This document shows, in pieces, positions 19,097-39,900 of a stretch of DNA of 64,000 bases. The notes beneath the pieces are model-generated. The model did not search any database. It had not been told where the DNA came from and saw nothing but the letters and a program-made list of their open reading frames with translations. This DNA is from Trypanosoma brucei (taxonomy: Eukaryota): assembly GCA_000002445.1 (NCBI GenBank), contig CM000207.1, forward strand, positions 800,001-864,000, read 5' to 3'. Numbering within the stretch: position 1 is the first letter of the stretch; each line of letters begins with the position of its first letter. The translations under genes and the position numbers were made by a program.

Positions 19097-20717
19097 GGCC
19101 GTATCGTTCTTTATTCTTGGAGTGGCTTGGTTCTTTTCCTTGTTAGTAAGATCAAAGGTGGGAACCACATCCCTCAGATGAAAAGCGGCGGAGGGAGGGA
19201 GAAAGGTGAACGAGTGGAGGGGAAACTTGGGGAGGAGTGGGCGTCCGTTCTAATTGCTGCTATGTAATAGAAGTATCCGGTACGTATTATTCATGTGTTC
19301 TTGTTTGTGGGTATCCACATTTTTCTTTGGTGCAGATACTTTTCCATCATGATTCCCTGTTTAAAAAGGAGAAACTGCAGGTTCGTTTATGATGTCCACG
19401 CCTGTTAGGCCTGGGAAATTCGACCTCACTGCTTTCCCTTATCACCACTTTGCTCGTTTTCCCGTGCATCTCCCCGTTCCCACGGTGATGGGGGAAAATG
19501 AGTGTACACAAGACGACTGTCAGTAAAGTTTAACAACAGACAAAGCCGAAGTGGGCTTACCTTAGGGAAATCAAGGGACAGCGTTCGACCCAGTAATGGC
19601 ATGCCCCTTTACAACTGCAGTGCGGGTGGTACTTTGCGTCGCTGTACTCAAAATTCTGTGCGACGCCATTAATTTCCGCCGCTTCATTCGGGCACGGGTC
19701 ACGTACGGTGGGGAAGGTGAAAGGGCTTCGAACTTCAACTAATGCCACCTAACATACTCGCGACGCATGCATAAGTACTAAAAGACAAACGAACGGCCGC
19801 CCCCGCAGGTTTGTCATTAGTGTTGCAATTATCGATTCTCCACCCCCACGGAAGCGCACAGATGCACACAAGCAGGCAGAGATACACAAGTACAAACGCG
19901 GTTGTATGTGTGTGCAGGTGATGAACTTCCCCTTTGCGTGCGCCGGCTCCACGAGGGCTATGAGCAACTGACTAGCGGAATGTGATTTCCGCTTTTTTTT
20001 TTCCAAGATGTTGGAGTGCCACCTCCACATCAGTAGAGGCAATGTATATATATATATATATACATTGGCAGCATCCCGTTCATTCACATCCTTATTAACG
20101 TGCGCGCTAGATACGCGGTGGAGGGGAGGCAAGAAAGTGTTTATGGGAGTTATGCACTGAGGGGCAACTATCTTATCAAACCTGCCGCCTCCCTCCCCCC
20201 CCCCACGGCAAAACCGCACATAGCATTAGGTTATTATTATGTCCTTTTGGGGCATTATTATCGTTTTTTTTCTTTTACTTGTCTTCCAGCGTTTGTTATA
20301 ACTGATGGCATCGTGCACAATAAAATGTTTCACCTTTCTTGTGTTGTTGCGCGCGCACGTGTGCATGCGATCACCTCTTTCCCAGTAATGACAGTAGTGC
20401 CCCTTATTCATCAATTAATGAGTTGTTGTGCCGCAATGTGGAACTGTGTGAATCCATGAACGACTCTTCATGCTTGCAGACCGCATTATCGGGAGGGTTC
20501 TATCAGTTGTCCTTTTTCTCATGGTTACACATATCTTTTCTATATCTTCTTCCCCATTCGATGAAAGTACGAAAAGGAACCCCTCGGCACGGGATCTCGG
20601 AGGGGTATGTGGTGTGCACACGTTACGCATACATATATACTTGTATGTATGTATTTATTTGTTTTGCGTTTACCCCTTCCCCACTGCATTGACTTCTAGT
20701 ATATGTTTTCCTTGAGA

Positions 20718-22418: not shown

Positions 22419-25055
22419 ATGTCGAAATCACGCGCGGTGGTGAAGTTTGGTGGCGACCAATCGAAGGAGAGGGTTTCCTTCCGAAATTTCTTTGATGTGC
22501 TGAATCAACGGCACAGCAACGTGTCCGTCTCAGGCCTGGCGGTGACCCTCTTGTTCGAGTTGCTCTCCATATCCATTTATGTGGAGGCATCTTTCTACGC
22601 CCATCCAACGTCGATATACGATTTCAACTGGAAAACCGGCCGGTTCATTACCGTAGCGATCATCAACGCTATATTCTTTTCGGAGTGGATCGTAATGCTC
22701 TGGGTAGAGGAGCAGAAGGTGAGGTATTGCCTTTCTTTGTTGTCAATCGTAAATGCCCTGACGTGCTTGCCAATGGTTATTGTGGGTATTGGTGCAATTG
22801 TCAAGCCCACATGGCAAAGCGTATGGGTGCCCCTGTTTCTCCGCGTGTGGTGGCTGCGCAAATGCATTTTAGTCCTGCTCGACTATCCGCAGGTTGCGAA
22901 GTGGATGATGGACATAAGACGCGATATCTGTCGTTTCTTGATTACCATGCTTGCCGTCCTCTCCACGTGTGTTGGTATACAGCAGTTTGTGGAGACCTTG
23001 GCTGGGAATTACATGGATCCGTTTTCGTCTCTCTACTGCATGGTCACCACTTTTGGGACGATTGGGTACGGTGACGTATCGCCGCAAACGGCACCGGGTC
23101 GGTTCCTTATGATTGGCTTTCTTGTCGTGGCCCTCAGTTATTTCCTGCCCCTGTTCCAGCGGTTGGCACAAATTGGTCGAGACCACCTGAACTATAATGA
23201 ATGTCACTCGTGTTGGGGAAGGAGGCCGCACGTCATATTCTCCGGTATTTTCACGGGGCTTGGGGCAGAAATCATATTGATGAATTTCTACGCCGGTTGG
23301 AGGAAGTACCTTGGTGTTAGAGTGGTACTTCTTTCTCCTGTCGACTTTCCTCCGGAGGTGAGGCTGTTGGCCGACATCCCTTGGCTCAGGAACCGCGTTG
23401 TACTCATGATTGGAGATTCAGCTAAGCAGGTGGATCTCATACGGGCTGACGCCGCGAACGCCGAGGCTATTTTCTTGTTCGGTGACACGGGTTCGGCAGC
23501 TTATCATGCCGATTACCAGGTGATACAACAATCACTTGCCATACGCCAGTTCGATCCCGAACTCCCTCAACATCTGTACCTTCGAAGCGAGCGACATACC
23601 CGACACGTGGCGTCCTATGCTGCCAGTGTAGTGGAGGTTGAGAGACTGTTGCATCACTTGTTGGGGCTCGGTGCTGCGGTCCCCGGGGCTGTACCCTTAA
23701 TAATGAACCTTCTCCGAACGTACGAACCACTCAAAGTGAAGGGTACAGCTTCACGTCCGTGGATAGAGGAATATGAGTGGTCGCTGCAAAATGATATCCA
23801 CTGTTTGGAGATGCAGCAAACGTTCAGAGGTTATAGTTTCCACAGTTTGGCAAGGCTGCTCCTCCAGCACAACGTCACGCCCATAGGCATTATCGATGAA
23901 AACGGCGAGGTGCAACTCAACCCGCATAGGATATCCTCTTCTGCAGTCAAACTTGTTGTAGTTGCCAAAGCCCTTCGGTCCGCCAGGAGTGCACTGGAGG
24001 CTGCGGAGGAAGCGCACTCTCAGACCTCATTTGGAGAACATACGGGTGAGGTGGAGGGAAAAGAACCATGCATCTACGGAATGGACCGCGAGGCGGCTGC
24101 CGGCGCATACTACACCTCCGATTTTCCCGGTCGGGAGGCCAAAAGTGGAGTTGAGGCGCTGCAGCTTGTGGATGATGCCTACGACTTCGAGAATCATTTT
24201 GTGGTTATCGACCTCTCGATGGCAAAAGCGAAGGCACCAGAAACAGAGGGGGCGCGAGAGGGATCCCTCAGCTCAGCTGCCATGGATGTCTTCCATGTGA
24301 TGCGTTCCATCCGGCAGTCGTATCCACAAAACGATATTGTCTTGCTAACGAAAGACACCTCCTTCTCCGCCTACTTTGGGCGCTATTGGAATTCGGTCCC
24401 GGGTGCCATTCCAGTGAAATATATCGATGGCTGCGGATTGAACGCAAACGACCTCAGACGTTGTAACCTCAAGCGCAGCGCAGGTATCATCATTTTTTTT
24501 TCTGGGGACATTGGGGGTGCCTCTACTGGTGGACTCTCCCTTTTGGTCTTTCTTTCGGTTGCGTCCATTCTTCCTTCGTCGCATAACATACCCGTTGTGG
24601 TGGAACTGGACAGCACGCAGTATCTCTCCCTCTTTCCACCATATGCCGACGACCCGTATCTGTGCAGCAGGGCCGAATCTGATTTTGTATTTGAACCCAA
24701 CTATGTTATCGGCAACGCCTTAAGTAGGCATATGTTTTTCCCATCTGTACACCGTACTTATTTTATGGACGAATTCGTTGACATTATTGACATGATGGTT
24801 AGTGGTGTGGATGAAAGGACGCCGTCACTCGGTCGGCTCCCGTTGCTCTTCACCACTGACTCGTTACACATTTATCAGGACGTAGTTGAATACTGCCTCA
24901 AACTCTGTTATCTACCGATTGGTTTGCACCGTTGCATCTCGGACCCGGAAACCCCGTATATCAACGGCCAACGTTTTGTGCTCACAAACCCACCGGGGGA
25001 TTTGATTGTTGATCAGAAATGCGATGCCGTTTTCTACCTTCTACCGGCTAGTTGA
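22419..25055 (+). CDS. potassium channel subunit (6TM pore-loop channel with large C-terminal RCK-like cytoplasmic region)
   Basis: The K+ selectivity filter TTFGTIGYGDVSP sits between two hydrophobic helices, with four further N-terminal TM helices and a ~600-aa soluble C-terminus. The ATG at 22419 is genuine. The protein resembles a trypanosome Ca-activated K channel subunit (TbK2-like), which is a recollection. Confidence 0.85.
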   Translation: MSKSRAVVKFGGDQSKERVSFRNFFDVLNQRHSNVSVSGLAVTLLFELLSISIYVEASFYAHPTSIYDFNWKTGRFITVAIINAIFFSEWIVMLWVEEQKVRYCLSLLSIVNALTCLPMVIVGIGAIVKPTWQSVWVPLFLRVWWLRKCILVLLDYPQVAKWMMDIRRDICRFLITMLAVLSTCVGIQQFVETLAGNYMDPFSSLYCMVTTFGTIGYGDVSPQTAPGRFLMIGFLVVALSYFLPLFQRLAQIGRDHLNYNECHSCWGRRPHVIFSGIFTGLGAEIILMNFYAGWRKYLGVRVVLLSPVDFPPEVRLLADIPWLRNRVVLMIGDSAKQVDLIRADAANAEAIFLFGDTGSAAYHADYQVIQQSLAIRQFDPELPQHLYLRSERHTRHVASYAASVVEVERLLHHLLGLGAAVPGAVPLIMNLLRTYEPLKVKGTASRPWIEEYEWSLQNDIHCLEMQQTFRGYSFHSLARLLLQHNVTPIGIIDENGEVQLNPHRISSSAVKLVVVAKALRSARSALEAAEEAHSQTSFGEHTGEVEGKEPCIYGMDREAAAGAYYTSDFPGREAKSGVEALQLVDDAYDFENHFVVIDLSMAKAKAPETEGAREGSLSSAAMDVFHVMRSIRQSYPQNDIVLLTKDTSFSAYFGRYWNSVPGAIPVKYIDGCGLNANDLRRCNLKRSAGIIIFFSGDIGGASTGGLSLLVFLSVASILPSSHNIPVVVELDSTQYLSLFPPYADDPYLCSRAESDFVFEPNYVIGNALSRHMFFPSVHRTYFMDEFVDIIDMMVSGVDERTPSLGRLPLLFTTDSLHIYQDVVEYCLKLCYLPIGLHRCISDPETPYINGQRFVLTNPPGDLIVDQKCDAVFYLLPAS

Positions 25056-27894
25056 TGCTGCCATGATGTTGTCTTCTTTTTTTTTTCCTTCTGGCTGACA
25101 CCGACGATGTGCAAGTGGGCACTTTGACGGTTGTGGTCGCTCGACTCGCCCTTGTGCGCCGCACACTAAAGATAACAATAATAACAATAACGTTAAAAAT
25201 AAATCCTAGGAAGCTTTACCACATCTATCACCACCACCACCCTCCCCGGTGGGCCTTTTTTCCCCCTTTTCTGGTGCCCCTCCCCCCCCCCCCTCCACAC
25301 ACACACACACACACACACATTAGGTCTTTTGAAAATAAGGGAACGGCATGTGCGGTTTTGACCCCTTTGGAGCAGCGGTGAATGGAGCAAACGAGCAACC
25401 CCACGCCATGCGGAGCAACAAAGAGAGACGTATCGCCTACACATGAAGCGGCTAGCGGGGATGAGGGTTGGAAAACGAATCGGGAGGAAACGGCCTTTTT
25501 GCCGGCGAAATAAAAATGGTGTCGGCGAGCGAGTAGGTACGGCAACGCGGGCCTTCAAGGCGGACACTTTCTTGATGAAGCGGATCGGCAACTTCCTTTC
25601 GGGGATGTAAGGCGTAACGCGGTTGTGCGAAACCCCGCGGGGGCCAATGTCAAGCACCATTTTTTTTTTTTTTTTTGCAACGACGGTAAACGGGTAGAGA
25701 AAGAAAAATAGTAACAGACAGGGCCTCAAGCACTATTTTCCCCCCTTTTACATATGGCAAGTCTATTTATATATGATGGGGGCCACAACGTAACCGTGAC
25801 AACGGGGAAGAAATCATCGTGAAGCTGAGCACCCCACTGCAACGGGTGCCGGATCGTGCAACGAAGTGGTTAAAGAGACATTTTATGGAAATCTGAACAA
25901 AAAAGGTGGAGCGCCACATTGTTGTTTAGTGATTGCATTTCGGGCCCGCTGCACCCAGCTGCTGCTGGAAGGGAAATGGGTTCGGGCCACGGCCCAAGCA
26001 CCGCGCAGACGCTCATTGTTTGGATGGAAAGGACGTTTTCATGAAGGAAATAGGGGTTAGGCACTGGAATTTGAGAGAGGTTGTAGGAGAAAGAGAGAAC
26101 TGGTTGGGTGAAAGCGGTTATAAGACGGGGAGAGGCGGTATACTTATTGAGACGTGCGGATGTTGAAGGGGGAAAAAAAGAAGGGGATATGCTTCAGGAA
26201 ATCTATGTGGTTTACGCGTCAATCTCTACACGAACGTGTGGGAGATGACGGGGGTCCGTATGGCTAGACGCCACAGAAAGGGGGACCGGACCCTCACAGA
26301 AACCGAAATCCAGTAGTCAAAAGCGCTGCGACATCTGAGCGGCAGTAGTTAGAGGGAACCGCGTCGCACAATAGCACCGGCTCGCACCGCATTTGAATCC
26401 ACAGCTCCCCCCTCCACTCCCTCCCCATGCTTTCCAGGAACCGTGGGTACGTGGTAATTCCCGAAAAATAATCGGTCAACCGCCCCATATTATGAAGTAG
26501 GCCCAGCTAAGGCATGGGGAATCCCCATGCACGCACAGAGGCGAAGGTTTTTTTCCTTTTTTATGAAGCATATTAGGTCAAACTCTCCACCGTCGCTTGC
26601 CGCCTGCGCCATGACGCTTTAACAGTGTGCAGTAGCAGGTGACGGCAAAAATGCGAACCTCGCACCTATACCAAAGTTCCAGAAGACGATTAAAAAAAGA
26701 AAAACAATATGTGAAATCCTTTTCCCGGATCAACACCCCAAACAGGGACCATCCGCCTACATCAGCAAAAGAATAAGTAATCCCTCTCTCTTTTTGGAAA
26801 TGCGCCTTCCCCGAGTGTCGACACCTGTGGTGTTGCCGTGTCACTTGGAGGGGGTTTCAAGTACAGACTGGGTTCGATACGTCGCGGATCGCAATGGAAT
26901 AATAGATGTTGTTCCCCTTAGTGTTTTGTGAGATGCAATGCGACCCGCAACCCAATAGCGGCATAAGCAATGGAATCAAAACAAATAAAACAAATGCCAA
27001 TACTAACAAAGACTCTTCTTTCCACGATGTTTCCACGGAGTGGTAAAGGAGGCTCTCCTCCGCGTGCCGATGGACGATGGAATGGGCGGACAAAGGGTGT
27101 AACAAGTAATAGCCCCAGTATGTCTAACCAACGCCCTGAACCGTCAGAGGCCCACACTTCGTCAACCTGTTCCCCAGCCTTTCTTCAGGCGCCTGCCGTG
27201 TTCGTACTTGAAATGGCGGGCTTTCGGTGTACTTCTCCTGAGGTCAAATTCACGGCCCATTCCACGGGAATATCGGAAAGGAAAGAGAGGCTTCAGTGTC
27301 CTAACCTCCGCCAAAAAACCGCCAACTACGTGCGGTAAAATCGACGCGGCGGGGGTATCACGGTATCCAGTGATTACGGATCGTCGCGTCATCCATCCAG
27401 AGAGAACCATCCCAAACAGGTTGCCGACCGCAGCTGCCCTTTATTTCCTTCGTCTGCTGCTGGCAGTAGTGCGCAATGAAATCGAGCTCAAGAAGCCAAC
27501 GCGTACCCTAAGAAGAAGGGTGAGGTGCCTTAGCGGTTTCCATCCTTCAGGGGCCGCACAAATACGCAGCCTCTTGGCGGAGCTGTTGAACGAAGCAGCG
27601 GAGGGCGGTGCCCGAAATAGACAAATTGGGACACCCGGTGTGTGCAGCCCAATAAGTGCGTTTATCGGTCGCATAGCGGGTACCTCAGCTACGACTAACT
27701 CCGCATACAAGATCTTTTCCGCGTCTGTGTATAAGAAAGAAAAGAAAGAAAAACCGCATCAAGGGCCAACGGAGGGGAAACACACACATCCATCCGAAGA
27801 GACGGTGAACAACAACGGTGGATCACATATTTTCCCTATGTGACAAGTGGTGCACTCAGCGCTCCTAACCGAAAAAGCATCAGAAGAATAGCTA
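25056..27894. other. convergent strand-switch region (predicted pol II termination zone) between the K-channel gene (+) and the LRR gene (-)
   Basis: Both flanking genes point into the interval. There is no long ORF here, only spurious low-complexity ORFs across C-run/(CA)n/T-run tracts. I scanned for a tRNA B-box and found none. Confidence 0.6.
25277..25319 (+). repeat. composite microsatellite C-run(CA)12
   Basis: cccctccccccccccccctccacacacacacacacacacacatt, lying in the convergent strand-switch region. Confidence 0.9.
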
Positions 27895-29367
27895 TCATCG
27901 AAGCAGATTCACTCCCCTCGCCTGGAGCTCCGATAAGACTTCACTGTCAATTTTGACACCCCTCAAGTTCACGGAACGCAACCGTGGCAAAGTCGTAAGC
28001 GCTTCCACACCCTTTTCCACTGACAGGCAAGAGTTGAGGCTAATTTCCTCCAAGGTCTTCACTGCAGCGAGGCAAGATACATCGGTAATGTCCATGCACG
28101 TATCGAGGCAAAGCACCACCAAACTGCGGCTTGCGCTCAAATCCCGCAGAGAGTCGTCTGTGATGGGCAAACACGTTCCATCTAGTCTACGGAGTTCAGG
28201 AAGCTGAGAAATATTGCCAATACCCTGTTTCACCTCTGTGCACGCGTCAAGATTTAACTCCCCTAGCGTTTTGAGGCTTACGAGTGCTGATAAATCCGTT
28301 AGATTATCGCAGGAAGAAATATCAAGTCTTACAAGACTCCGACTTGAGCACAAGTCTCGCAGAGCACAATCGGTAATGGGTGTGCAGCTCAAATCAAGTT
28401 CGTAGAGTCCTGGCAACTTACCCAGGTCACCAATACCTGCCACCACAGCCTCGCACGACTGGAGATTAAGGTACTTCAAGGTCTTCAGCTCCGCGAGGGG
28501 CGAGACGTCAGTTAGCTGGTCGCACCAGGAAAGGTTAAGTTTTACCAAACTCCGGCTTGAAGAAAGACCCTGCAAAAAAACGTCCACAATGGAGGAATAA
28601 CTTAGATCAAGTTCATATAGCGCTGGCAAACCACCCAGCTTCCCAACACCTTCCTCCAGAGATGTGCATGACTCAAGAGTAAGCTGTCTCAGAACCTGAA
28701 CATCAGCGATGTGCAGCACATCCGTTAGACAACCACACGAAACTATACAGAGATTCAAAAGACTGGTGGTGGCGCCTAGGCCACGAAGAGAGTTGCCCCT
28801 CATCGACGTGCCTATCAAATACAGCTCGCGAAGTGCCGGCAACTTTCCAAGACTACCGATACCCGTCTCAATACCCACACACTTACATATTGCCAGATGC
28901 TCCAATGCTGTCATCTCAGCAAGAGGTGAAACATCCTTCAAATAGGGACACGAATCAAGGCAGAGTTTTACGAGGTTGCACCCAGCGGTTAGGGTCTGCA
29001 AGCATCCTCCCCTAATTGGGGCCTCAGCAACTTCCAGTGCTTTCAGTTGGGGAAGATTTTTAATGCCAACGAAGTTTTCCAGCTTCGGTGCTTCTTCAAT
29101 AGACAACTCGCCTAGCGACCTCAGTTCGGGAATAGGGCTTAAGTCAGCGAAAGGGTATTCGCCCTCGAAGCGCAGTGTCTGAATGGAAGTGCACAAGCGG
29201 AGAGAACGCAAAGATTCCCTTTCAACTTTTTCCGTGAGGATGAGGTGATGGCAGCTACGCAGCTCATCACTCCCAGTGGCTCGTAGACTGCCAACACGCA
29301 ACCGGTTCGTTTCTCCACAACAAGGGCGAACATCTCCCCCAACACTCGCATCACTTCCTTCAAGCAT
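27895..29367 (-). CDS. leucine-rich repeat protein (ESAG8-like LRR domain, no RING finger), 490 aa
   Basis: It is the only long minus-strand ORF in the window. It has about 18 tandem ~23-aa repeats of the form LxxLxLxxCxxLTDVSPLAxLKxLxxLNL, which are cysteine-containing LRRs typical of the trypanosome LRRP/ESAG8 family. The ATG is at 29367-29365 on the minus strand, and a pyrimidine tract plus AG lies about 300 bp upstream on that strand. Confidence 0.8.
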   Translation of the reverse strand: MLEGSDASVGGDVRPCCGETNRLRVGSLRATGSDELRSCHHLILTEKVERESLRSLRLCTSIQTLRFEGEYPFADLSPIPELRSLGELSIEEAPKLENFVGIKNLPQLKALEVAEAPIRGGCLQTLTAGCNLVKLCLDSCPYLKDVSPLAEMTALEHLAICKCVGIETGIGSLGKLPALRELYLIGTSMRGNSLRGLGATTSLLNLCIVSCGCLTDVLHIADVQVLRQLTLESCTSLEEGVGKLGGLPALYELDLSYSSIVDVFLQGLSSSRSLVKLNLSWCDQLTDVSPLAELKTLKYLNLQSCEAVVAGIGDLGKLPGLYELDLSCTPITDCALRDLCSSRSLVRLDISSCDNLTDLSALVSLKTLGELNLDACTEVKQGIGNISQLPELRRLDGTCLPITDDSLRDLSASRSLVVLCLDTCMDITDVSCLAAVKTLEEISLNSCLSVEKGVEALTTLPRLRSVNLRGVKIDSEVLSELQARGVNLLR

Positions 29368-32300
29368 TGCAGACTCCCTACCACTGATGTAGACAACTTT
29401 ACTAGAGATAACTACGGAACAGATACAAGTTACGAACCTTTGGTGCCTCCTCCTCCGCTGTCGCGGTGTCTACTGAAGCAACAAGCTTCCTCTAAGGGTG
29501 GTAACGACCTCCCCAATAAATTTGCGATTAATCAGAAGTAGTCTTCCAACGTGCGCAGGTGAAAATGCATAGATACATAAATAAATACCAGGATCATTAT
29601 TATTATTTTTTTAAATGAAAGAAGGTGGCAACCAAAAGGGAAAGCGCGCTTTTGAACTCATTCATCCGACGTGACGGAAAAAGTTTTCGCACCACGTGCA
29701 AGGTTTCAACAAACACCGGTATACACCAACGCTCTTCCGGAGAAAATGTTGCTGGAGGCTGACGAAAAAGGCCCCCAAATAATGAAGATCACGGTTCATA
29801 AGCCGCACAAACTAACTGACAGGACAATGAAAATGCTCCCAAAGTATTTGTGAAAGTAAGGCAATCCCCACGCGCTACAGCAACTGTCCTCCGCACATTT
29901 CACTCGGTGTTTCACCGAAACGAGGACGACACACACATACACACACACACACGTCTACCCAGCCACTAAAAGCACATCAATCCTCAAAGGAGGAAAAAAA
30001 AAAACGGACAGAAGCTTGGCTGTAGTGTTTCGTTTAGCCCCTCATGTCAAAACAAAAGCTCTTTAAATACTTTAGTTACCTTTCCACTGGAATAACAGAG
30101 TTCCTTCTTCCACACTCAAATACACCAACGAGCTCCTTCACGCACCCTCGGGGTTACCGCGGCTCACCTCTTCTGCATTATGTTCGGCTCATATTGATCA
30201 TTCATTTAACCGGTCATACAATTTAAAATTTTCCCACAACGTAAATTAATCGAAAAAAAAATGAATACACACGAAAATACCAAACGCTCAACCAATAAAA
30301 GCTTGGAACCACCTGTACCACCAAGTCATGGGATACACGTGTCAGGAAAAAAATAATTCGGTAGGTGCAGATTGTACGTATGGATGCAACCAACAAACCA
30401 ACACACTGCAACCGCAACTGCCCGTGGGCCAGTATGAAAGCAACGGTATTTTGAACAGCCCTGCTTTCGTATTAATCAAATCTAAGTGAAGAGAACAACA
30501 ACAAAATATAAACGTGAATATACATTTCCACGAAGGGGTGCGTGCCCTTCCTGGCAGCGCCTGGGGTAAACCAGATATAACGTACTGAGTCGTCGATCAA
30601 AAGATTCCCAGGCGGCTGAATGTAGGCGGTGACAATGCTACAGCATACGCTAACCAGACCCCAGCTTTCTGTAGTGCCAACTGCAGTGCGTTGGGACATC
30701 TTCAATCCTCCTGTTACATGAAAAATGAAGGCAAGCTCGTTAAAACGTTGTTAATTACAACGAAAGGTGATGCCATAAAATACACACGAAACAAAAATGC
30801 ATTGATTTCAATACAATCGGCGCTGATAAAATTAGAAAACCTTAAGCTGCAACCGCACTACACTTCTTCATGGAAGCATAACGACGCACGCAAACGCATC
30901 CGATGATGCCCATTGGCGGTTTTCTCGACTGGGTAAAATCAGATGTGAACAATCGTTGCTACAATACTAGTGCCTTTTTACTTTCCATCTTACTCGTGCG
31001 CCAAGTTCATCACCAGGGCGGCAACAACGCTTCAAAAACCCACACATAGCGACCATATCGCAGTGATATATACTAAATTAATGTGGATACTCAAGGCTCA
31101 ACAAAGCGCAGGAAAGATACTGTGCGTTAACATTATTTTTTCTCACACACAAACAGATTTAACACTCTACATGGATACCCGGTCACGGAATAGAAGCTCT
31201 GCTATGTAGAACGACCCTCTACCCCAAGAAGTCTGGTGGTCCTGTTGAGGCATCACCGTCAACGAGGACGTACCTGCTAGGGCTGGGTAAAACTTCCGTA
31301 AGGCTCCAAACATGGCATTTACATATGAATGCACAGCAATGCATGCACAATATGTATGAGCCAAGGAAAAAACAACACGAAATAAAAGCGCCTGCTCAAC
31401 CTCACAACTGCAAGGGCTTAAATCACTCTTCTGGGGCAACGAACTTAACTGAACAACCCAACAAGTTGGTATTCAATTACCCAAAACGGGGGTCCGCCAA
31501 TGACTCAGAAGGAAAGGGATACGATGGTACGGAGCTGCTGTACGTTACATGGTTTCATTCTGGCACAGACCATGCAGATACCCTTAAGCACTTAGGAAAA
31601 AAAGATGTTTTTCATGTATCGTATCGGTATAGCACTTTAAAACGACGCACAAGTAATACGCCTTCATCAAGTCGGTCCACGCAGCTTAAAAGCCCAAGGG
31701 CTGAGTAGACGTAGCGCGCGCTAACTTCAACTTTAGTCCTCGTATACGGACGTGGGCGTCACTAAACGCAAGCACCCCCAACTTTCCCCTTTACACAAGA
31801 GATGTGGCACGACCACAGCGACACCCCCCAGTTATCTCCCCCTTTTTTCTTTGAATGGAGGTCCAAAAAGGCAACCCCCCGACTTCCTGCCCCATTTTCC
31901 CGTTCTGCAGAAGGCAGCAAGGATGAAGTGAAACATCAGGGAAGAACGCTCAGCCCCAGACTCTATCAGAAAACGAAACGGAAAGCCGCCCAACGACGAC
32001 GGTTAACACTTTCGTGCATAACACCTCCGCGCGTTCTTAAACGTACAAGCCAGCAAGTTAACCCCCCCCCCCCTCACAAGTAAAATTTTCTACGGCGTCA
32101 CTGCAGAGGAGACTCGGGGCTGCGCACATACAGGAAGAGAAGGTCTAAAAGCGACCCGGGTCATTTTGCTGGGCTCGCACTCCGTGCGGCAGTGCCAAAA
32201 AAGAGTCCCATTTCACCCCTGCACTGCACTCCCCCCTGGTTATGTGTCTCAAGCTGCGGACCGACAGCACACAGGGAAAAAAATGGGTGCAGTAAGTTCC

Positions 32301-32855
32301 CGGTGGGTGGTATGCATCCCTCTCGCATCCGCCGTGTGTAATGAGAGCCGCCGCATGGCGGAGGAAAACCGGTGCCATGGAGTTCCGAGGGATTAGTCGT
32401 TCCCTCCATTCACACGAAAGGTGTGGCAAAACGGGGGAGGGGTGACTGGCCTCTCGCCACAGTCCATCTAAGCCTGCCTGTACGGCAGCTGCAGTACTTC
32501 CTTCCACGGTATTGGCGGAGGCTTCAGCGAATAATTTTTCCTCAAACCGTCTCTTACCCGCGGCGAAAGAGGGGCGAGTGAGTGGACTCTTATGCCCCTC
32601 TTGTCAGGCTTCGAACGGTCTTGTCCCGATTGCCGGGTAAGGCCTAGCAGGAGTGTGAGAGCGGCCCTTCAAGGTGGCTCTGCAGGTGAACAAAGCCACT
32701 GGACTTGGACAGGCAGTGGTTCTTTCATGATCCCGTCATCACAGCCGCGGTCCGGTACGCCGCGGAGTGGCGTTTGTGTTCCAAGGGAGACTTGCCGAGC
32801 CGTTCACCTTCTGTGCGGGATGAGGCCGAACCTATTTCGTTCGGGAGCTCACCTC

Positions 32856-33170
32856 GGTGGTGACTGTGGTTTTGGTGGGTGCCTTGCTCCGCTGTGTTGA
32901 AATTTGTCGAGGTGCGTGCTATTTTTTCCTTTTCTTTTTTTTTTTTGGTATCGAGTGTGACTTTCTGGGGGTAATGTGGTTGTTATTTCGCTGGAAGTGT
33001 GCGCTCCCTGAGGTGCACACATCTGGGCGGTGCGTGCCCCTCTGGGGTTCTGCGGCGTTGGGTAGCGTGCCCCTTGGTGTTATTGTTCTTTCTAGCGAGA
33101 CTGCCGGTCGAGAAGTGTGTGTGTGGAGACACGCTGCTACGTGGGGTCGTCCTCCTGGTGTGTGTGTGTT
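32856..33170 (+). promoter_or_regulatory. GT-rich element in divergent strand-switch region (candidate RNA pol II initiation/H2A.Z-deposition element for the downstream plus-strand polycistron)
   Basis: Over about 315 bp the plus strand is almost entirely G+T (ggtggtgactgtggttttggtgggt ... gggggtaatgtggttgttatttcgc ... gaagtgtgtgtgtggagac ... cctggtgtgtgtgtgttgc). It lies about 3.8 kb upstream of the first plus-strand gene (36962) and about 3.5 kb from the minus-strand LRR gene ATG. GT-rich elements are described at T. brucei pol II transcription start regions. Confidence 0.45.
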
Positions 33171-36100
33171 GCTCGCGCGCGCATGCCTGCCTGCGCGGGA
33201 TTCGCTGAGCAATGTGTCGCTGACTTCCCTTTATAAAAAAAAAAGAAAAATAGTTCGCGATATGTTCGTTTGCTTGACAGACGCCGAAGTACCGTGTTCA
33301 CGCAAAGGGTCGATGAAGATCTCGTCTCGCCTTTCGCGCTTTCGGGGTCCCGCAGTTATCGTATCTTTTCGAAGTGCACCGGGCTAAGATTCGCGTGGGG
33401 TGCCGTGCCGATTTCCCGACTGGTGATGCACTTCAGTTACTGCGGTGTTGTTTCCGTTCATTTTTTGATTTTGAATCACTTTTTTTTGTGTTTTTGACAA
33501 ATACAGGTTCTGGTGTACGCGAAGCGTATGCTTTTCTGGAGGTGGGCTTGCGCCCGGAATCTTCGTCAAACTCAGAAGATTTGTGACGTTTTTGGTCAAG
33601 TCACTACTACACATATATATGTGGTGAGGGTTGGTAACTTGCCCTGTGAACTAGCAACCACCTGCTGTTTGCTAAAGGACCAACTTTCGCTTTGTATTAT
33701 ATTTTATTTGATTCCCCCGGGAGGTGGAATGTGTTGTCATTTGTTCTAATCTGGGTGATAATCCTCGCCTGATTTAAAAAAAAGGAAAACGGCGACGGGT
33801 CAGTGTTATGTTATCTTTGCGACCAGAACTGTTTGTCAACAAATAAGTGGGTGTATTATTGTATAAGGGGGAGAGATTCTGTTTGGACCACAGCGGATAA
33901 ATAATAGGAGCAAATATAACTGTATGTACTCCTGAGCACAATAGAGTTTTGTTCGAAGAAAAGGATCACTTCATTGATCCTGCTTTTGCCAAATTTTTGC
34001 CTTTTGGTGACAAGAGCACTTGATAGCGGCGTGTCGCAATTCGGTTGTATGGTTTCTATAACTTAAATCCCGTGGATGGAAGCTGCGGATGAATATACAG
34101 TTAACTGTGTGCACGGCTGCCATTATGATTTCCCCCCTCTGCGTTCTAACCAACCCTAAGCTCGCTGGTAAGTTTGTACGAAGCTTTTCGGAGGAAAGTA
34201 AAATATTTTTCGGTTATTCGTTACGTACTGAAAACATCTTATGGTTTATTTATATTAGGGATTTGCGTTCTTGAGCTGAACAATTAGACGTGTCCGAAAT
34301 GTAAGTTTCGATTACTGCTTTCATTTTCCCGGTCTACATATATACATCCGCGCACACATATATGTATGCATATATTAAGTGCGTGGGCTTGAGTCTCCAT
34401 GTATATGTACATAGCTTCTATTTTCTGTAGTAATACGAAGGTCGTGTTGTGCGCAACCACTCGTGTACTGTGTGCGGTAATGTTTTCAAATGGTTAAAAT
34501 TTCCCCCCTTTTAATAGAGCGGCGTGCACACGCTAGCTTCGGTTTATATTATTTACTTCTATCAAACGCTCGTGATGTTTAAAGGTTTCCTCCCCTTTTT
34601 GGCGTGCATGGGTATGGGGACACAGGATGTCGCTTGTTTTTTTATTTTCTGCGCTCTTATCATAAGTTGCACGTGTGGAAAATGTTAATCTGAAATAAAG
34701 CGGGTGTAAATTGTATCGTTCAGTAAAGGAGGGATGCGTTCACAGTATCGAAAAAGTTTCAGATCACACTGAAGGCAATCGACCGTATTTAAATGTAAAG
34801 GTGCAGTGATATTCCGACGGCACTATTCCGTTAGTTGCTTACTGTAGGCGCCGTGATGTTTTGAAAATTTTCTTATTTACTCTGTGTTTACTCATTGGGC
34901 CTTCTGTTTTTGACTACACCAGTGGGAAAAAACGTTTTTTACACTTGAACCACTCATAAAATGCTTTTTGCAATGAAAAAAAAAGAGAGTAAATCCACTA
35001 ATATCCCAACGAGGTAGGGCATTTCTTTTACATCAACAATGCCGAAAGAATATGGATTGGGGAAGAAACCTTAATTCCGGTAGGCTGACGTGAACTTTTT
35101 TATTACTTTTCTAGTGGCCGAAGGGTTCTTCAAGGAAAAAAAAATAAGGATTGGGATCTTTTTTTTTTTTTGACGACAACATCTTTGTCACTGTTCAACT
35201 CTCTTGAAAAGAATGTGATAAAATTGTGAGGTTATCTTTTGATGACTTGGAAAATATTGAGTATTTCCCGAAGTGGCCTAATTACGTGTGAGGTAAGGTC
35301 GATCGACGGTCTGAGCCGGGCGGTGCCCATGTTTGTATCGTTTCCCCTTTGTTTCTCATCACGTTAGGTCTGCTAGCAAGGTGCCCTAAGGAGGACCTTT
35401 TATTTAGATTAATATTTCCCCGATCACGTGTAGTCTATGAAGCAGGTCTGTGCGCTTGCTCAAGAGAAAACTAAAGGAATGATGTTGTTTTATCCTCGTT
35501 GTTTCGTAGTGCGGCTCATAGTTTTACAATGCCCCACATATTGCCCGAAAGGTGGCCCGGGCACAATTTGTTCAATCTTCAGAGGATGAGTTGCCCCGTT
35601 TTGATTCATTCACAGCAATATATCCCCTCTCAGCCCCTTCCAACGAGTGTCGTGTTTAACCCTATGTGCGGGTTGGGGAAAAGAACGGTTGTTTTAATGT
35701 ACGGTGGCTTTATGACTTAGATTATGAACCACAAACTGTGTTTCATATTGGTTGCACCAACCAACGTAAGGAGACTTGTATTGGCCACTTTGGTCAAGAT
35801 AATTCGCGTACTCTTCCCCTTCCTGAGTGCAAGGGCTTTGTGAAGTTGACCGGGCTATTAATTAAAAAAAGGGTTATGCCTTACCGACTTGATTGCAGTT
35901 GGAGGATGTCTCCATTGTTTGTTATCGTTCTGTTACCAGCGCTTCTCCGATTTCGTTTATTAGGGCGTGTTCTTTACTAAATTGGCTTCCACACAGGGAA
36001 AAACAAAGATGAGAAAAGAGGCGGCGATGAAGTGCGCTTTGTTTGCTCAGATATTCTGGTTAGTGCTGTCAGGGGTTGATTGGAAACCAGATACCTCAAG

Positions 36101-36961
36101 ATTGTTCTGCCAAGTGTTGTTTTACAAAAATTCTACCTATTCTGCACCTCCTTTTGGTAGTGGTGTATAACTCAATTGGATAGCAAGACACATGACACTC
36201 TGCTTCCTTTTGTTTGTGATCGTCGTTGTGATTCGCTGTACTTGCCTATGTGGGGAAGAGAAATGTCATTCTACCTTTTTTCTTTTGAAATTTGTCTCTT
36301 TGCTAGAATTTGGATGGACTTGTTGTCACGTACGTATCAATGTGTAATTATTGATATTCGGAATAAGTGAAAAAAAAATGGACGGGTCTTCAGGGACATC
36401 CATCCCTTTTCTTGATGTGCTGGAAAGTGTTGCGGCAGGTACTGTTCTGTAGTTGGGTGAGCGCTTGCGTCAGGTTTCTGAGCTACTGATGTTTTCCTCA
36501 GGTACGGACGAAGTGGGGGATTATTGGAAAATGTTTTTATCTAGTTTCTAATGTTTATCATTTGTTTACGGTATGTTGCCGCTACAAAAATACTGGTAAT
36601 TATGACGTTTCTGCTGCCCTCGGTTATGACGTACTTGGAAGGATCGAACGTTACTTTTTTTTTTAAAAAAAATCAAAACTGTTTAAAAATTTTACGTTGC
36701 AGTCGCTTAAAAAAAATTTATGTGTGTATTTCCCCCTATGTGTTCCGTTCACTGTGCCTGTAGGTCAAAGGACGTTTATGATGCCTTAAAAAAAAAGAAA
36801 TTGGTCCCTTGAACCTCGTATTTTGTCTTCCTTTTCCTATTTTGCTTTATTTACACCATCATGTATTTAGGGACATCGAGCTTAGGACTCATAGGGAAAC
36901 GGGTTGCCAATAATTTATTACTTTAATAGTGGTTCGTCTCGGTAGGTATTTTGGGTGTGAG

Positions 36962-39900
36962 ATGTCCGATCTCCTTGAGTTCTTTGTCCCAGCCTATGCC
37001 CGTGACTTGGAAAATATTGAAAAAGTTGGCGTGACTCAGTATCACATCAGTGAACCGTGTGATTTTGACGTCCCTCCACGGCAGCAGCTCGATGATCTTA
37101 CACGTCTTTTTGACAGTCTTCACAGGGAGAAGTCACCGACAGCTCTTTTTTCCAAACCGGAGCTGTTCGCAGCCCTTTTCACGTATATAAAGGCCATGGA
37201 GGACAAGGAAACAAGTTTTGCTGTCACGAGAGGTGCAAGACACAAAATATGTCATGAATCTGCCGAACGATTGAAGAAACTTCTCCAAATATGCGTGACA
37301 TATCTGAGGAGGAACGCCGAAAATGGTTTTAGAGATTCTCTGCTTTTGTGTTTGCGTTCAAATATTAAAATGTACGTTTTTGTTCTTTGCAATACCTTGC
37401 TGTCCACGGCACCGGGTATAGATGACGACGAGGGCATGTCTCCTTCATTCCAGAGGACGGGGCGAAAACGAAAGCGGAATAAGGGTAATCAAGAGGCAGG
37501 AATAGGTGAAGATGACAGTGGAGTCGATCAGGATGGCCGCGAACAGGCCCTTTCTGCACTTATAGATATTTTTTCACAGGACATTTTACAACTATGGACA
37601 GGGGAACTCATAGAAGAATCTATGCTGACTCTCATGCTGCGGATGCTACTTCACATGATCACCCAAAAGTGCAATATTCATGCCGATGTACAATCCGTGT
37701 CTGGTGCGCTTGTGGTTCTTCTTTCCAAGATATCTGCACAGATGATGGCCAGAGGTTCAATTGAGCCCAATGATTTTGTTTCTCCAATGATCGAACTGGT
37801 GTTGAAGTCTGAAGTAACCGCCCTTTTCTTCACGCGATTCGTCGCTGAAACAGAGAATGAGGGTGCGTCTGCTAATCACGCAGGCCGTGTAGTCACTGCG
37901 CTTATTGAAGGCGTTGCTGGTGTCGCCCTCTACGATGTTGTGGGTGATCCATCCGCTGCGAAAAATGTTGCTTTGTTTTTCAGTGAAGTCGCGAGGAGGT
38001 GCGTGAGCGTAACATCACGTATGTCCGATATTGTGATGCAAACCATTAACAGCGAAAGTTACGAAGTAAGGAAGTCGATCATCACTTGTGTCACTGAAAT
38101 GGTTATTCAGCGTTACAGTGGGCCTAACTGTAACGGCGAAGGTGAGGAGGAGATCCGTGATGGCTATCTCTCCGAGCTGCTGTGTCGCCTCATGGACTGT
38201 AATCCATATGTTCGTAATCACGTTGTGCACATGTGGGAGAAGTTGTTGGAGGCTCGAGCCGTCCCAAAACGCTTCCGCTTACCGCTAACGGGCGCTATTG
38301 TCGGCAGACTAGAAGACAGAAACTACCTTGTGAGGGACTCTGCCCTTCAGGTCGTCGTATCGATATTAAACAAGAGCTGGTTCGGCAGTGTATTGAGTCC
38401 ATCGTTGCTAGAAGAGAAGATTCGTGAGGCGACGGCTGCGGCCGAGGTTCTTTTTGAGTCCGTGGAAATGTATGTGAGGTGTCTAGAGGGCGTGAGAAAG
38501 TCCTCTACGTTTACGGAACCCCAAGCTAGTGGTTTGGCTGAAGAGGCAACGGGAGACGTTCCCGTTCCCATAGAGATGTCAAGCGAGCAAGAGTCTGCGA
38601 TTGATCGGGTTATCTCTTTTGAAGCATCAATGGAGTTCGCTAAATTGATAGCAAAATCACTAACGCATGCTACGTCCCTGCTGGATAGCCGAACTGAGCG
38701 AGATGCTATCGAGGCTATAAAGCTTGTGGTTGCCTGTAACCGACACCGGATCGATGAGGCTGAAAAAGCCTTTCTTCACGTACTGGTAATGGTTTACGAA
38801 GGGGAAATCAAGATTCAGTACGCTGTGCGAGACGCCCTCGTAGATGTTGTTTTCAACGCGTTTTCAAGGTCAACGACATCGTTAGCGGTGCAGAACACCG
38901 CCAGTGCTCATAAGTTGATTAGCTTTCTTCGCGGTGCAAAGGAGGGTGACATCAGCGCTGTTGATAGAGTATTCGCTCTCATTAGAACGAACCCTCCCCA
39001 CTGGCGACTCATTTCAGGCCACTTCATAGACGCTCTGTGGGGGATCGCAGGCGGTGCACTCGATGGCGGTGCCACTCTCGTTGAAAGGCGAATAGCTATG
39101 CGCCTTTTCAGCATTGTCTGCAAGCATGATTGGCACGCACTGGTATCCAGAAAAGAAAGCGTTGTGGAGTTTTTGAAGTCGGGCACTATGAAGGACAACG
39201 TTGTTTTGGCGTACTGCTTGAAGAGTCTCGAGGTTGAAGGTCAGGATCCACACTATCAGCCTATATCGTCCAAATTTGCGCCGGGTGAGCATGTAATTCT
39301 TGAGCAATTGGTTTTTCACTTGTGCAGAACCACAACTACGTTGTCTTCATGGCTAATCGTGGCCGATGCAGCTATTAGCGCTGTTCATCGCCTATGCGAA
39401 GTTCCCGCAGTTGTTTATATCTATGTATTGGAGTATCTCGCACAAAGAGTTGACGCTGATGTTAATACTCAGGCTCAGCTTTTTTTTGTATTGGGGCGTA
39501 CAGCGCTGAAACAGCTCGTTGCGGTTGATTGCCTAGAACGCCAGCATCTGAAAAGGGTCGATGTCGAAGCTATGGCTAAGAAGCCAGCAACGGAGCAGTC
39601 GGTTGTGGGTGATGCTGACGCTATGCACAAGGAATTGGGTTTGGGCTCTCACGAGTACAGAAGGCACGCGATCCAGGAACTAGCTCAACGCCGTAAGCAG
39701 GCTATCATGTCTGAGGGTTCAATCTGGCACCGTCTCTCCAAAGATGTTGTTGATGTCTGTCGGAAAAAGGCATCGCGGTCTGTGGGTAACCCACTAGAGA
39801 GGGTCTGCGCCGTCATGACTATGTCTGAGCTCATGATTGTGAGTGACCAGTTCTGTGAGCAGCATCTAGATCTTCTCTTCACCATCGTTTCCGACAAACG

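What the first reader, a model, noticed from the sequence alone, without database searches (positions are those of the whole stretch)
27895..29367. Solitary minus-strand ESAG8-like LRR gene forming a one-gene unit between a convergent and a divergent strand switch
- All other 20 genes in the 64 kb are plus-strand.
- This 490-aa protein is built almost entirely of cysteine-containing LRRs of the ESAG8/LRRP type (CxxLTDVSPLAxLKxL...), but it lacks the RING finger of ESAG8.
- Single-gene pol II units are unusual in trypanosomes. ESAG8-like genes are otherwise associated with VSG expression sites, so a chromosome-internal, oppositely transcribed relative is worth characterising. It may be a source or sink for recombination with expression-site ESAG8 copies.
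Basis: partly seen in the sequence, partly recalled or inferred. Interest (0 to 1): 0.5.

Follow-up and report, generated by a model that had tools for sequence, protein, structure and literature searches.

The report
Known single-gene LRRP transcription unit
This is the already annotated Trypanosoma brucei leucine-rich-repeat gene Tb09.160.3410, which sits backwards on the short arm of a two-way promoter on chromosome 9; it is real, but it was catalogued as a one-gene transcription unit in 2010 and is only a distant cousin of ESAG8.

Summary
Window 27895-29367 (-) is an intact 490-aa ORF made only of LRRs, with no RING. It is the only credible minus-strand gene in the window, which is T. b. 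brucei TREU927 chr 9 (v4 800,001-864,000).

It is not new. The gene is Tb09.160.3410, "LRRP, putative". Kolev et al. 2010 (Table S14) already list it as its own Pol II unit ("-", Divergent), one of 16 single-ORF units among 187 read.

The minus-strand block is about 7 kb (25.5-32.5 kb). It also holds a 1.5-kb transcript with no long ORF, Tb9.NT.29, upstream of the gene.

The protein is six 71-aa tri-LRR super-repeats forming one confident solenoid. T. congolense has an ortholog. So does T. vivax, where it lies on the same strand as the K-channel neighbour and is followed by a RING-LRR gene and an RHS gene.

The locus is a synteny breakpoint. After the same K channel, T. theileri has RHS, T. 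cruzi has trans-sialidase/DGF-1 and L. major has unrelated genes.

ESAG8 is only 26-31% identical, ranks 54th among homologs and has a different repeat period. Recombination with expression-site copies is therefore implausible. Interest is low.

The parts
27895..29367 (-). CDS of LRRP Tb09.160.3410 (490 aa). An about 60-aa N-terminal stretch is followed by six 71-aa super-repeats (23+24+24-residue LRRs, residues 61-486) and the C-terminal tail ...VLSELQARGVNLLR.
   Evidence: ORF. Identical to XP_803787.1. Pfam LRR families only. 71-aa periodicity with 38% self-identity. AF2 solenoid with pLDDT 91.
29368..29644 (-). Predicted 5' processing region of the LRRP mRNA. It holds polypyrimidine tracts at 29644-29617. 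The first downstream AG is at 29544/29543, which gives a predicted 175-nt 5'UTR with no uATG.
   Evidence: Read from the sequence. The 3' end of Tb9.NT.29 at 29614 abuts the tract, as expected for coupled polyadenylation and trans-splicing. The splice site itself is predicted, not observed.
29614..31096 (-). Tb9.NT.29, a 1,482-nt minus-strand transcript upstream of the LRRP in the same unit. It probably does not code for protein; its longest minus-strand ORF is 77 aa.
   Evidence: Kolev 2010 Table S7, 0.95 RNA/cell. Absent from their conserved-ORF, peptide and ncRNA tables. ORF list. Divergence from DAL972 is like neutral flank, 98.6%.
31097..35367 (.). Divergent strand-switch / bidirectional Pol II initiation region. 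AT and GC skew change sign at about 32.3-32.5 kb. There is a C12 run at 32062-32073 (G12 on the minus strand) and a GT-rich stretch at about 32.85-33.2 kb on the plus strand. The small ORFs annotated here give no transcript.
   Evidence: Composition. Sequence and tract scan. Kolev Table S14 labels both flanking units 'Divergent'. Table S2 lists Tb09.160.3430, 3450 and 3460 as untranscribed.
35368..36709 (+). Tb9.NT.30, the first mapped transcript of the plus-strand unit, upstream of Cnd1.
   Evidence: Kolev 2010 Tables S7 and S13.
25056..27894 (.). Convergent strand-switch / presumed termination zone between the K-channel stop and the LRRP stop. The next minus-strand polypyrimidine tract is at 27753-27733. 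It contains the annotated 'glucose transporter pseudogene' (25976-27479, +) and Tb09.160.3390 (25193-25660, -), neither of which is transcribed.
   Evidence: Sequence. Kolev Table S2. No Pfam signal in any frame. It is the most diverged segment against DAL972, 97.1%. Termination here is inferred.
22419..25055 (+). Ca-activated K channel (TbK2, Tb927.9.4820 / Tb09.160.3380). It is the last gene of the upstream plus-strand unit and the last gene of a synteny block conserved across trypanosomatids.
   Evidence: Pfam. Orthologs. Contexts. Kolev Table S14. Gene ID from PMC9799330.
36929..40738 (+). Condensin subunit Cnd1-like gene. It is the first solid ORF of the downstream plus-strand unit and is presumably Tb09.160.3470.
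   Evidence: Pfam Cnd1. Kolev Table S14 starts the unit at Tb09.160.3470. The assignment of that ID to this ORF is inferred.

Best explanation
Locus. A conserved, functional salivarian LRRP gene sits on the short arm of a bidirectional Pol II promoter, at an evolutionary synteny breakpoint.

Transcription. Pol II starts somewhere in about 31.1-35.4 kb and runs both ways. Rightward it gives a long plus-strand unit (Tb9.NT.30, Cnd1 and onward). Leftward it gives a short unit of about 5-7 kb, containing the transcript Tb9.NT.29 and then the LRRP mRNA. The LRRP mRNA is predicted to be trans-spliced at the AG at 29544/3 and polyadenylated shortly after the stop codon. The leftward unit ends where it meets the incoming K-channel unit, at about 25-28 kb.

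Protein. It is a soluble LRR solenoid of about 20 turns, with no signal peptide, transmembrane segment, RING or other catalytic domain. Its most likely role is an intracellular protein-protein interaction scaffold.

Shown versus inferred. Shown: the ORF, its conservation, its family, its fold, the strand layout, the unit listing and the neighbouring transcripts. Inferred: the exact splice and poly(A) sites, the termination zone, and the protein's role.
For: Identity and conservation:
- The ORF is identical to Tb09.160.3410.
- The CDS is about 5-fold less diverged than its flanks against DAL972.
- T. congolense has a collinear ortholog (53% identity, residues 17-490) and T. vivax has one at 44%.
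- The three share a diagnostic tail, LPRLR..N(L/M)R...GVxLLR-end, found in no other fetched homolog.

Transcription unit:
- Kolev 2010 Table S14 lists Tb09.160.3410 -> Tb09.160.3410, '-', 'Divergent'. It is paired with Tb09.160.3470 -> 4950, '+', 'Divergent'.
- The same paper reports 5'-triphosphate reads in both directions at all such sites.
- The LRRP is absent from their no-transcript list, while all six small flanking ORFs are on it.
- Archer 2011 records about 530-620 tags per cell-cycle stage for it.
- Tb9.NT.29 and Tb9.NT.30 bracket the switch.
- The AT-skew sign changes at about 25.5 and 32.5 kb.
- G12/C12 and GT-rich tracts lie at the switch.
- The polypyrimidine/AG layout fits the 3' end of NT.29.

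Synteny break. The genes after the K channel differ by lineage:
- T. vivax: LRRP, RING-LRR, RHS.
- T. theileri: RHS.
- T. cruzi: trans-sialidase fragments and DGF-1.
- L. major: a second K channel and a peptidase.

Protein:
- 71-aa super-repeat.
- AF2 model with pLDDT 91.
- Closest solved folds are the Roco LRR domain and internalin A.
- The maximum 19-residue hydropathy is 1.77 and falls inside an LRR, not a terminal signal.
Against: - I could not retrieve a directly mapped SL-addition or poly(A) site for this gene. Kolev's site tables are truncated in the held copy and Siegel 2010's supplements are not held.
- The five 1.6-1.7-kb Logan contigs that carry just this gene have ragged ends near the predicted transcript ends (5' ends 29496-29569, 3' ends 27834-27883). 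They carry no SL or poly(A), and I could not establish whether those runs are RNA-seq.
- Archer's near-identical counts for the neighbouring plus-strand 'pseudogene' Tb09.160.3400 suggest that tag assignment there is not gene-specific.
- No functional or localisation data were found for the protein.
- The T. congolense genomic context could not be obtained.
Confidence: 0.85

Rival explanations
1. The gene is a chromosome-internal ESAG8 relative (GRESAG8) that exchanges sequence with expression-site ESAG8 copies or was their progenitor.
For: It belongs to the same LRR superfamily and shares the C-terminal tail motif with ESAG8. In T. vivax the ortholog lies next to a RING+LRR gene of ESAG8-like architecture.
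Against: - ESAG8 is 26-31% identical and ranks 54th of the representatives at 134 bits. The T. congolense ortholog scores 472 bits and the chr 7 paralog 358 bits.
- It has no RING.
- Its repeat period is 71 aa, against 23/46 aa in ESAG8.
- Jackson 2013 assigns the progenitor role to the RING-bearing Tb927.1.3670 and Tb927.3.580.
- The gene is nearly invariant across T. brucei subspecies, with 0-2 amino-acid changes. That is unlike a locus undergoing gene conversion.
Confidence: 0.03
2. The single-gene arrangement exists because it allows gene-specific transcriptional or epigenetic control of the LRRP. Examples would be control through termination, base J or H3.V at the adjacent convergent switch, or through promoter directionality. 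On this reading LRRP genes are preferentially housed in such mini-units.
For: - Three LRRP-family genes sit in 1-2-ORF 'Divergent' units in Kolev's table: this one, Tb927.1.3670 and Tb09.211.4980.
- A post hoc hypergeometric test gives p = 1e-4 to 3e-3.
- PTU-level epigenetic regulation has been reported in T. brucei (PMC11796357, seen).
Against: - The enrichment test is post hoc, and the number of LRRP genes is only estimated.
- The pattern is equally explained by LRRPs being lineage-specific genes that accumulate at synteny breaks, which coincide with strand switches.
- The T. vivax ortholog sits inside a normal co-directional array.
- The chr 7 paralog is inside a long unit.
- Transcript levels are flat across the cell cycle.
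- The gene was not found in the Kieft 2020 supplements. That is weak evidence, because the modern ID was guessed.
Confidence: 0.1
3. The ORF is a decaying remnant or an annotation/assembly artefact at a strand switch, like the 'hypothetical unlikely' ORFs around it.
For: It is surrounded by six annotated ORFs that produce no transcript, including an unsupported 'glucose transporter pseudogene'.
Against: - The 490-codon ORF is intact in TREU927, DAL972, two T. equiperdum assemblies and five Logan assemblies.
- T. congolense and T. vivax have orthologs.
- Its divergence is CDS-like and low.
- The fold model is confident.
- A transcript was detected.
Confidence: 0.02

Closest known systems
Conserved trypanosome LRRP family (e.g. 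the T. brucei chr 7 LRRP XP_845653.1, the chr 1 LRRPs XP_846402.1/XP_001219194.1, and the T. congolense and T. vivax LRRPs)
   Same: They share LRR-only architecture, the 71-aa tri-LRR super-repeat and Cys-rich LRRs. The C-terminal LPxLR...L..L...GV-type cap is clear in the T. congolense and T. vivax orthologs. It is degenerate in the chr 7 and chr 1 paralogs, which end ...VLDELKSMNVWVNK and ...VAEELEKRGIVVKQM. These proteins are the best database hits. This gene is a member and is annotated as such.
   Different: It is the shortest member (490 aa). Its own ortholog group is defined by the ...GVxLLR terminus. Unlike the chr 7 paralog, which is embedded in a long co-directional array, it forms its own unit.
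ESAG8 (P26337 / CAQ57457; expression-site-associated gene 8)
   Same: Both have cysteine-containing short LRRs and a related C-terminal tail, VLEELKRRGVHIF versus VLSELQARGVNLLR.
   Different: ESAG8 has an N-terminal RING, a 23/46-aa repeat period and a telomeric expression-site location (established knowledge; Jackson 2013). It is only 26-31% identical.
RING-bearing internal LRRPs Tb927.1.3670 and Tb927.3.580 (proposed ESAG8 progenitors, Jackson 2013)
   Same: They are chromosome-internal LRRPs. Tb927.1.3670 is likewise listed as a single-ORF 'Divergent' Pol II unit.
   Different: They carry RING and NLS motifs and are T. brucei-specific. The window gene has neither a RING nor an obvious basic cluster, and it is conserved in T. 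congolense and T. vivax.
Other single-ORF Pol II units of T. brucei (Kolev 2010 Table S14; Nilsson 2010)
   Same: A lone annotated ORF on one arm of a divergent strand switch, ended by a convergent switch.
   Different: Nothing categorical. Here the unit additionally contains an unannotated transcript (Tb9.NT.29) and coincides with a pan-trypanosomatid synteny break.
Short-repeat LRR solenoids of solved structure (Chlorobium Roco LRR domain 5il7; Listeria internalin A 1o6v)
   Same: The overall curved solenoid of 22-24-residue LRRs. Foldseek E = 1e-13, TM 0.5-0.6.
   Different: 19-25% identity. No Roc/COR domain or internalin cap/Ig domains. The resemblance is one of fold class only.

Membership tests
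Trypanosome LRRP family | Protein composed essentially of leucine-rich repeats, with no other domain | tested here: met
   Pfam finds only LRR families. The AF2 model is a continuous solenoid over residues 20-490.
Trypanosome LRRP family | Best homologs are annotated LRRPs of African trypanosomes | tested here: met
   Of the top 18 representatives, the 17 whose source was checked are T. brucei, T. congolense, T. vivax or T. grayi LRRPs.
Trypanosome LRRP family | 71-residue super-repeat of three LRRs (my operational criterion, derived here) | tested here: met
   Offset 71 gives 38% self-identity. The same period appears in the T. congolense, chr 7 and chr 1 LRRPs.
ESAG8 | N-terminal RING (C3HC4) zinc finger | tested here: not met
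   No RING family in Pfam. The regex is negative here and positive in ESAG8 P0178.
ESAG8 | Nuclear localisation signal (said to be diagnostic by Jackson 2013) | tested here: inconclusive
   The N-terminal 60 residues show no K/R cluster by eye (output). No NLS predictor was run.
ESAG8 | Close sequence relationship to ESAG8 copies | tested here: not met
   26-31% identity. Rank 54 at 134 bits. Repeat period 23/46 aa versus 71 aa.
ESAG8 | Location in a telomeric VSG expression site | tested here: not met
   The gene lies between the TbK2 K channel and condensin Cnd1, about 0.83 Mb into chr 9.
Single-gene Pol II transcription unit at a divergent strand switch | Nearest real genes on both sides are on the opposite strand | tested here: met
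   Flanking small ORFs are untranscribed.
Single-gene Pol II transcription unit at a divergent strand switch | Experimental initiation signal (5'-triphosphate reads / histone marks) at the switch | not testable with these tools
   Taken from the literature only: Kolev 2010 Table S14 and text.
Single-gene Pol II transcription unit at a divergent strand switch | Mature trans-spliced, polyadenylated mRNA from the gene | tested here: inconclusive
   The gene is not in Kolev's no-transcript list, and Archer 2011 records tags for it. No mapped SAS or PAS was retrievable. The Logan contigs lack SL and poly(A).
Single-gene Pol II transcription unit at a divergent strand switch | Only one transcript in the unit | tested here: not met
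   Tb9.NT.29 (window 31096->29614, minus strand) lies upstream in the same orientation.

The most novel reading that the evidence does not exclude
LRRP-family genes are non-randomly housed in one- or two-gene Pol II units on the short arm of bidirectional promoters at synteny breaks. The examples are this gene, Tb927.1.3670 and Tb09.211.4980. This would give an otherwise polycistronic organism a way to control these genes individually at the level of transcription initiation or termination. The orientation flip relative to T. vivax would be the event that created such a unit.
Probability: 0.1. Interest if true: 0.5.

Novelty: already known. Interest (0 to 1): 0.15.

Why it matters
It matters little as a discovery. 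The gene is annotated, and its one-gene unit has been in the literature since 2010. It is a clean, compact worked example of three things:
- a bidirectional trypanosome Pol II promoter with a very short arm;
- a synteny breakpoint that different trypanosome lineages have filled with different lineage-specific families (LRRP/RING-LRR/RHS, RHS, trans-sialidase/DGF-1);
- an orientation difference between T. brucei and T. vivax orthologs.

If the recurrence of LRRPs in mini-units is real, these loci would be convenient places to test whether trypanosomes can regulate single genes transcriptionally.

Tried and rejected
- tRNA and Rfam scans of the whole window, looking for Pol III or ncRNA genes that often mark strand switches: none.
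- Spliced-leader or poly(A) sequence on the five Logan contigs: none, with ragged ends. The run accessions were not found in any paper, so their nature (RNA or DNA) is unresolved.
- Literature search for Tb09.160.3410 and for guessed Tb927.9.48xx IDs: only the K channel Tb927.9.4820 was found.
- Nilsson 2010 supplements: no entry.
- Siegel 2010 supplements: not held.
- Kieft 2020 supplements: no Tb927.9.482-487 entries.
- 'Glucose transporter pseudogene' (25976-27479): ten ORF fragments from the five reading frames that contain long open stretches gave no Pfam transporter signal even at E <= 1. I treat it as unsupported.
- RHS or RING-LRR remnants in the window, by tblastn with the T. vivax and T. 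theileri proteins: none outside the LRRP itself.
- Flanking inverted repeats that could have mediated an inversion: only one 33-nt low-complexity pair.
- DNA-level repeats within the gene: none.
- T. congolense genomic context: not on record.
- T. grayi P0003 as an ortholog: rejected. It has a different C-terminus, a 70-aa period and an unrelated neighbourhood.
- My initial assignment of the window to DAL972: rejected.
Full report
**What is at the coordinates**

Window 27895-29367 on the minus strand is an ATG-initiated ORF of 490 codons. Pfam matches only leucine-rich-repeat families (LRR_4, LRR_14, LRR_Zer-1 and others) and no RING. The translation is identical to XP_803787.1 / Tb09.160.3410, "leucine-rich repeat protein (LRRP), putative", of T. 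b. brucei TREU927. It is also identical to the T. equiperdum OVI protein. The T. b. gambiense DAL972 protein differs by S55F.

GeneDB v4 coordinates quoted in Kolev et al. 2010 equal window coordinates plus 800,000. The window is therefore TREU927 chromosome 9, 800,001-864,000.

**The strand observation**

All long ORFs that are not nested in a plus-strand gene are on the plus strand, apart from two short minus ORFs, 19749-20219 and 25193-25729. Their GeneDB counterparts are Tb09.160.3350 (window 19749-20030) and Tb09.160.3390 (window 25193-25660). Both are "hypothetical protein, unlikely" and are listed as giving no detectable transcript (Kolev Table S2).

The left neighbour is the Ca-activated K channel TbK2 (22419-25055, +). 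The right neighbour is condensin Cnd1 (36929-40738, +). The same antiparallel arrangement is present in the DAL972 and T. equiperdum assemblies. Mis-assembly is therefore excluded.

The ORF is under constraint. There are 3 differences in 1,473 nt against DAL972, compared with 61 in 5,972 nt in the flanks (Fisher p = 8e-4). That level matches the neighbouring K-channel and Cnd1 coding sequences.

**It is already documented**

Kolev et al. [quoted passage not shown]
- "Tb09.160.3410 - Tb09.160.3410, -, Divergent";
- the paired unit "Tb09.160.3470 - Tb09.160.4950, +, Divergent";
- the upstream unit "Tb09.160.2340 - Tb09.160.3380, +, Internal".

In the 187 units I read, 16 have the same first and last ORF. 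Nilsson et al. 2010 count 270 annotated monocistronic units, 76 of them with a mapped SL site. Kolev et al. also report bidirectional 5'-triphosphate reads at all such sites. A one-gene unit is therefore a minority class but a recognised one, and this very unit is in the published list.

**Anatomy of the unit**

The plus-strand AT skew is negative in plus-strand units. It turns positive from about 25.5 kb to 32.5 kb and then negative again. The cumulative GC skew has its minimum near 32.3 kb. The minus-strand-type block is therefore about 7 kb long.

At the switch there is a C12 run at 32062-32073 (G12 on the minus strand) and a GT-rich stretch at about 32.85-33.2 kb on the plus strand. Both are of the kind described at trypanosome initiation regions (my knowledge of Siegel 2009 and Wedel 2017; not tested here).

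Kolev's Table S7 maps two novel transcripts that bracket the switch:
- Tb9.NT.29, window 31096->29614, minus strand, 1,482 nt, 0.95 RNA/cell;
- Tb9.NT.30, window 35368-36709, plus strand.

NT.29 has no minus-strand ORF above 77 aa. It is not in their conserved-ORF, peptide or ncRNA tables. Its divergence looks like neutral flank.

The 3' end of NT.29 (29614) abuts the polypyrimidine tracts at 29644-29617. The first AG downstream is at 29544/3, which predicts a 175-nt LRRP 5'UTR with no uATG. After the stop codon, the next minus-strand polypyrimidine tract is at 27753-27733. That arrangement would place polyadenylation close to the stop.

Five Logan contigs of 1.6-1.7 kb carry only this gene. 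Their 5' ends lie at 29496-29569 and their 3' ends at 27834-27883, compatible with those predictions. They carry no SL or poly(A), and I could not establish whether the runs are RNA-seq.

Expression is supported in two ways. The gene is absent from Kolev's no-transcript table, whereas all six small flanking ORFs are on it. Archer 2011 records about 530-620 tags per cell-cycle stage, with a flat profile. A directly mapped splice site was not retrievable.

No tRNA or Rfam family occurs in the window.

**The protein**

Residues 61-486 are six 71-aa super-repeats, each made of LRRs of 23, 24 and 24 residues, with 38% self-identity at offset 71. AlphaFold2, run with a 16-sequence family alignment, gives a continuous solenoid over residues 20-490 (pLDDT 91, pTM 0.87, 21 beta-strands). 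The nearest solved folds are the Chlorobium Roco LRR domain and internalin A, which is similarity of fold class only. There is no hydrophobic terminus and no other domain. I infer a soluble protein-protein interaction scaffold. No functional data were found.

**Relationship to ESAG8**

An exhaustive HMMER search gave this ranking:

| Rank | Hit | Bits | Note |
|---|---|---|---|
| 1 | T. brucei chr 1 LRRP | 570 | multi-stretch match |
| 2 | T. congolense | 472 | one collinear stretch, residues 17-490, 53% identity |
| 3 | T. vivax | 422 | 44% identity |
| 4 | T. grayi | 358 | |
| 5 | T. brucei chr 7 LRRP | 358 | |
| ... | a long list of salivarian LRRPs | | |
| 54 | ESAG8 (P26337; the cluster holds CAQ57457) | 134 | |

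By BLASTP, ESAG8 is 26-31% identical. ESAG8 has the RING and a 23/46-aa period, whereas the LRRPs share the 71-aa period. The two do share a C-terminal tail motif, so superfamily kinship is real.

Jackson et al. 2013 identify the RING- and NLS-bearing internal genes Tb927.1.3670 and Tb927.3.580 as ESAG8's closest relatives and possible progenitors.

Three observations argue against the "source or sink for recombination" idea:
- divergence of roughly 70% at protein level;
- no internal DNA repeats;
- near-invariance across subspecies.

**Synteny and the orientation question**

The genes upstream of the K channel (DEAD helicase, two hypothetical genes, K channel) are collinear in T. vivax, T. 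melophagium, T. cruzi, T. theileri and L. major. What follows the channel differs by lineage:

| Species | Genes after the K channel |
|---|---|
| T. vivax | 731-aa LRRP (+), 530-aa RING+LRR (+), RHS (+) |
| T. theileri | RHS (+) |
| T. cruzi | trans-sialidase fragments and DGF-1 |
| L. major | a second K channel and a peptidase |

The locus is therefore a synteny breakpoint filled with lineage-specific families.

Three lines of evidence make the T. vivax LRRP (P0285, cluster P0131) the ortholog:
- it is the second-best non-brucei hit;
- it is adjacent to the same K channel;
- it carries the ortholog-specific ending ...LPRLRSLNLR...GVRLLR. T. brucei has ...GVNLLR and T. congolense ...GVSLLR. 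No other fetched homolog has this ending.

The T. vivax ortholog lies on the same strand as the K channel, 0.8 kb downstream, inside an ordinary co-directional array. T. brucei and T. vivax thus differ in the gene's orientation. Which state is ancestral is unknown, because the T. congolense context was not retrievable. No flanking inverted repeats survive.

**Verdict**

- Observation: confirmed.
- Interpretation: partly supported. It is a lone minus-strand LRRP without a RING. But it is a known, annotated and published unit. Its unit contains a second transcript. It belongs to the conserved LRRP clade rather than to ESAG8. The recombination idea has no support.
- Novelty: already known.
- Interest: low.

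The one thread I could not close is that LRRP-family genes recur in tiny "Divergent" units: this gene, Tb927.1.3670 and Tb09.211.4980-4990. A post hoc test gives p = 1e-4 to 3e-3. This may simply reflect lineage-specific genes accumulating at synteny breaks.

Noticed in passing
window 29614-31096 (-): Tb9.NT.29 is a 1.5-kb minus-strand transcript mapped by Kolev 2010 directly upstream of the LRRP. It has no ORF above 77 aa and shows neutral-like divergence. It may be a promoter-proximal lncRNA or simply the processed first segment of the short unit.
   Followed up: partly
Kolev 2010 Table S14; Tb927.1.3670, Tb09.211.4980 (P0309), Tb09.160.3410: Three LRRP-family genes head one- or two-ORF 'Divergent' Pol II units. 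In addition, Tb927.3.590, next to the RING-LRRP Tb927.3.580, is a single-ORF unit. Post hoc enrichment gives p = 1e-4 to 3e-3.
   Followed up: partly
L010:16953-18545 (+), T. vivax: A 530-aa protein with an N-terminal C3HC4 RING plus C-terminal LRRs (ESAG8-like architecture). It lies immediately after the LRRP ortholog and before an RHS gene, although T. vivax is not known to have ESAG8. It could bear on the origin of RING-LRRPs.
   Followed up: partly
window 25976-27479 (+): GeneDB annotates a 'glucose transporter pseudogene, putative' (Tb09.160.3400) here. No reading frame gives any Pfam transporter signal, and the region has minus-strand-type composition. The annotation looks unsupported.
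   Followed up: yes
L012:12923-20666 (T. cruzi), L014:14496-16349 (T. theileri): The K channel is the last gene of a pan-trypanosomatid synteny block. T. cruzi follows it with split trans-sialidase ORFs and a DGF-1 gene, and T. theileri with an RHS gene.
   Followed up: yes
window 52532-55348 and 57727-60504 (+): Two ORFs of similar size (938 and 925 aa) each contain an identical-length 164-aa antisense ORF (53452-53946 and 58623-59117). This suggests a tandem gene duplication.
   Followed up: no
window 25230-25320 and 25660-25676: Just after the K-channel stop there is a C-rich tract with a C12 run followed by a (CA)n microsatellite. About 350 nt further on there is a T17 run. This is low-complexity sequence at the convergent switch. 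A second C12 run lies at 32062-32073, at the divergent switch.
   Followed up: no
L002-L006 (Logan runs ERR7929156-64): Five independent assemblies each give a 1.6-1.7-kb contig covering only this gene. The contigs have ragged ends and carry the gambiense-type S55F allele. They look like transcript assemblies, but the run type could not be verified.
   Followed up: partly
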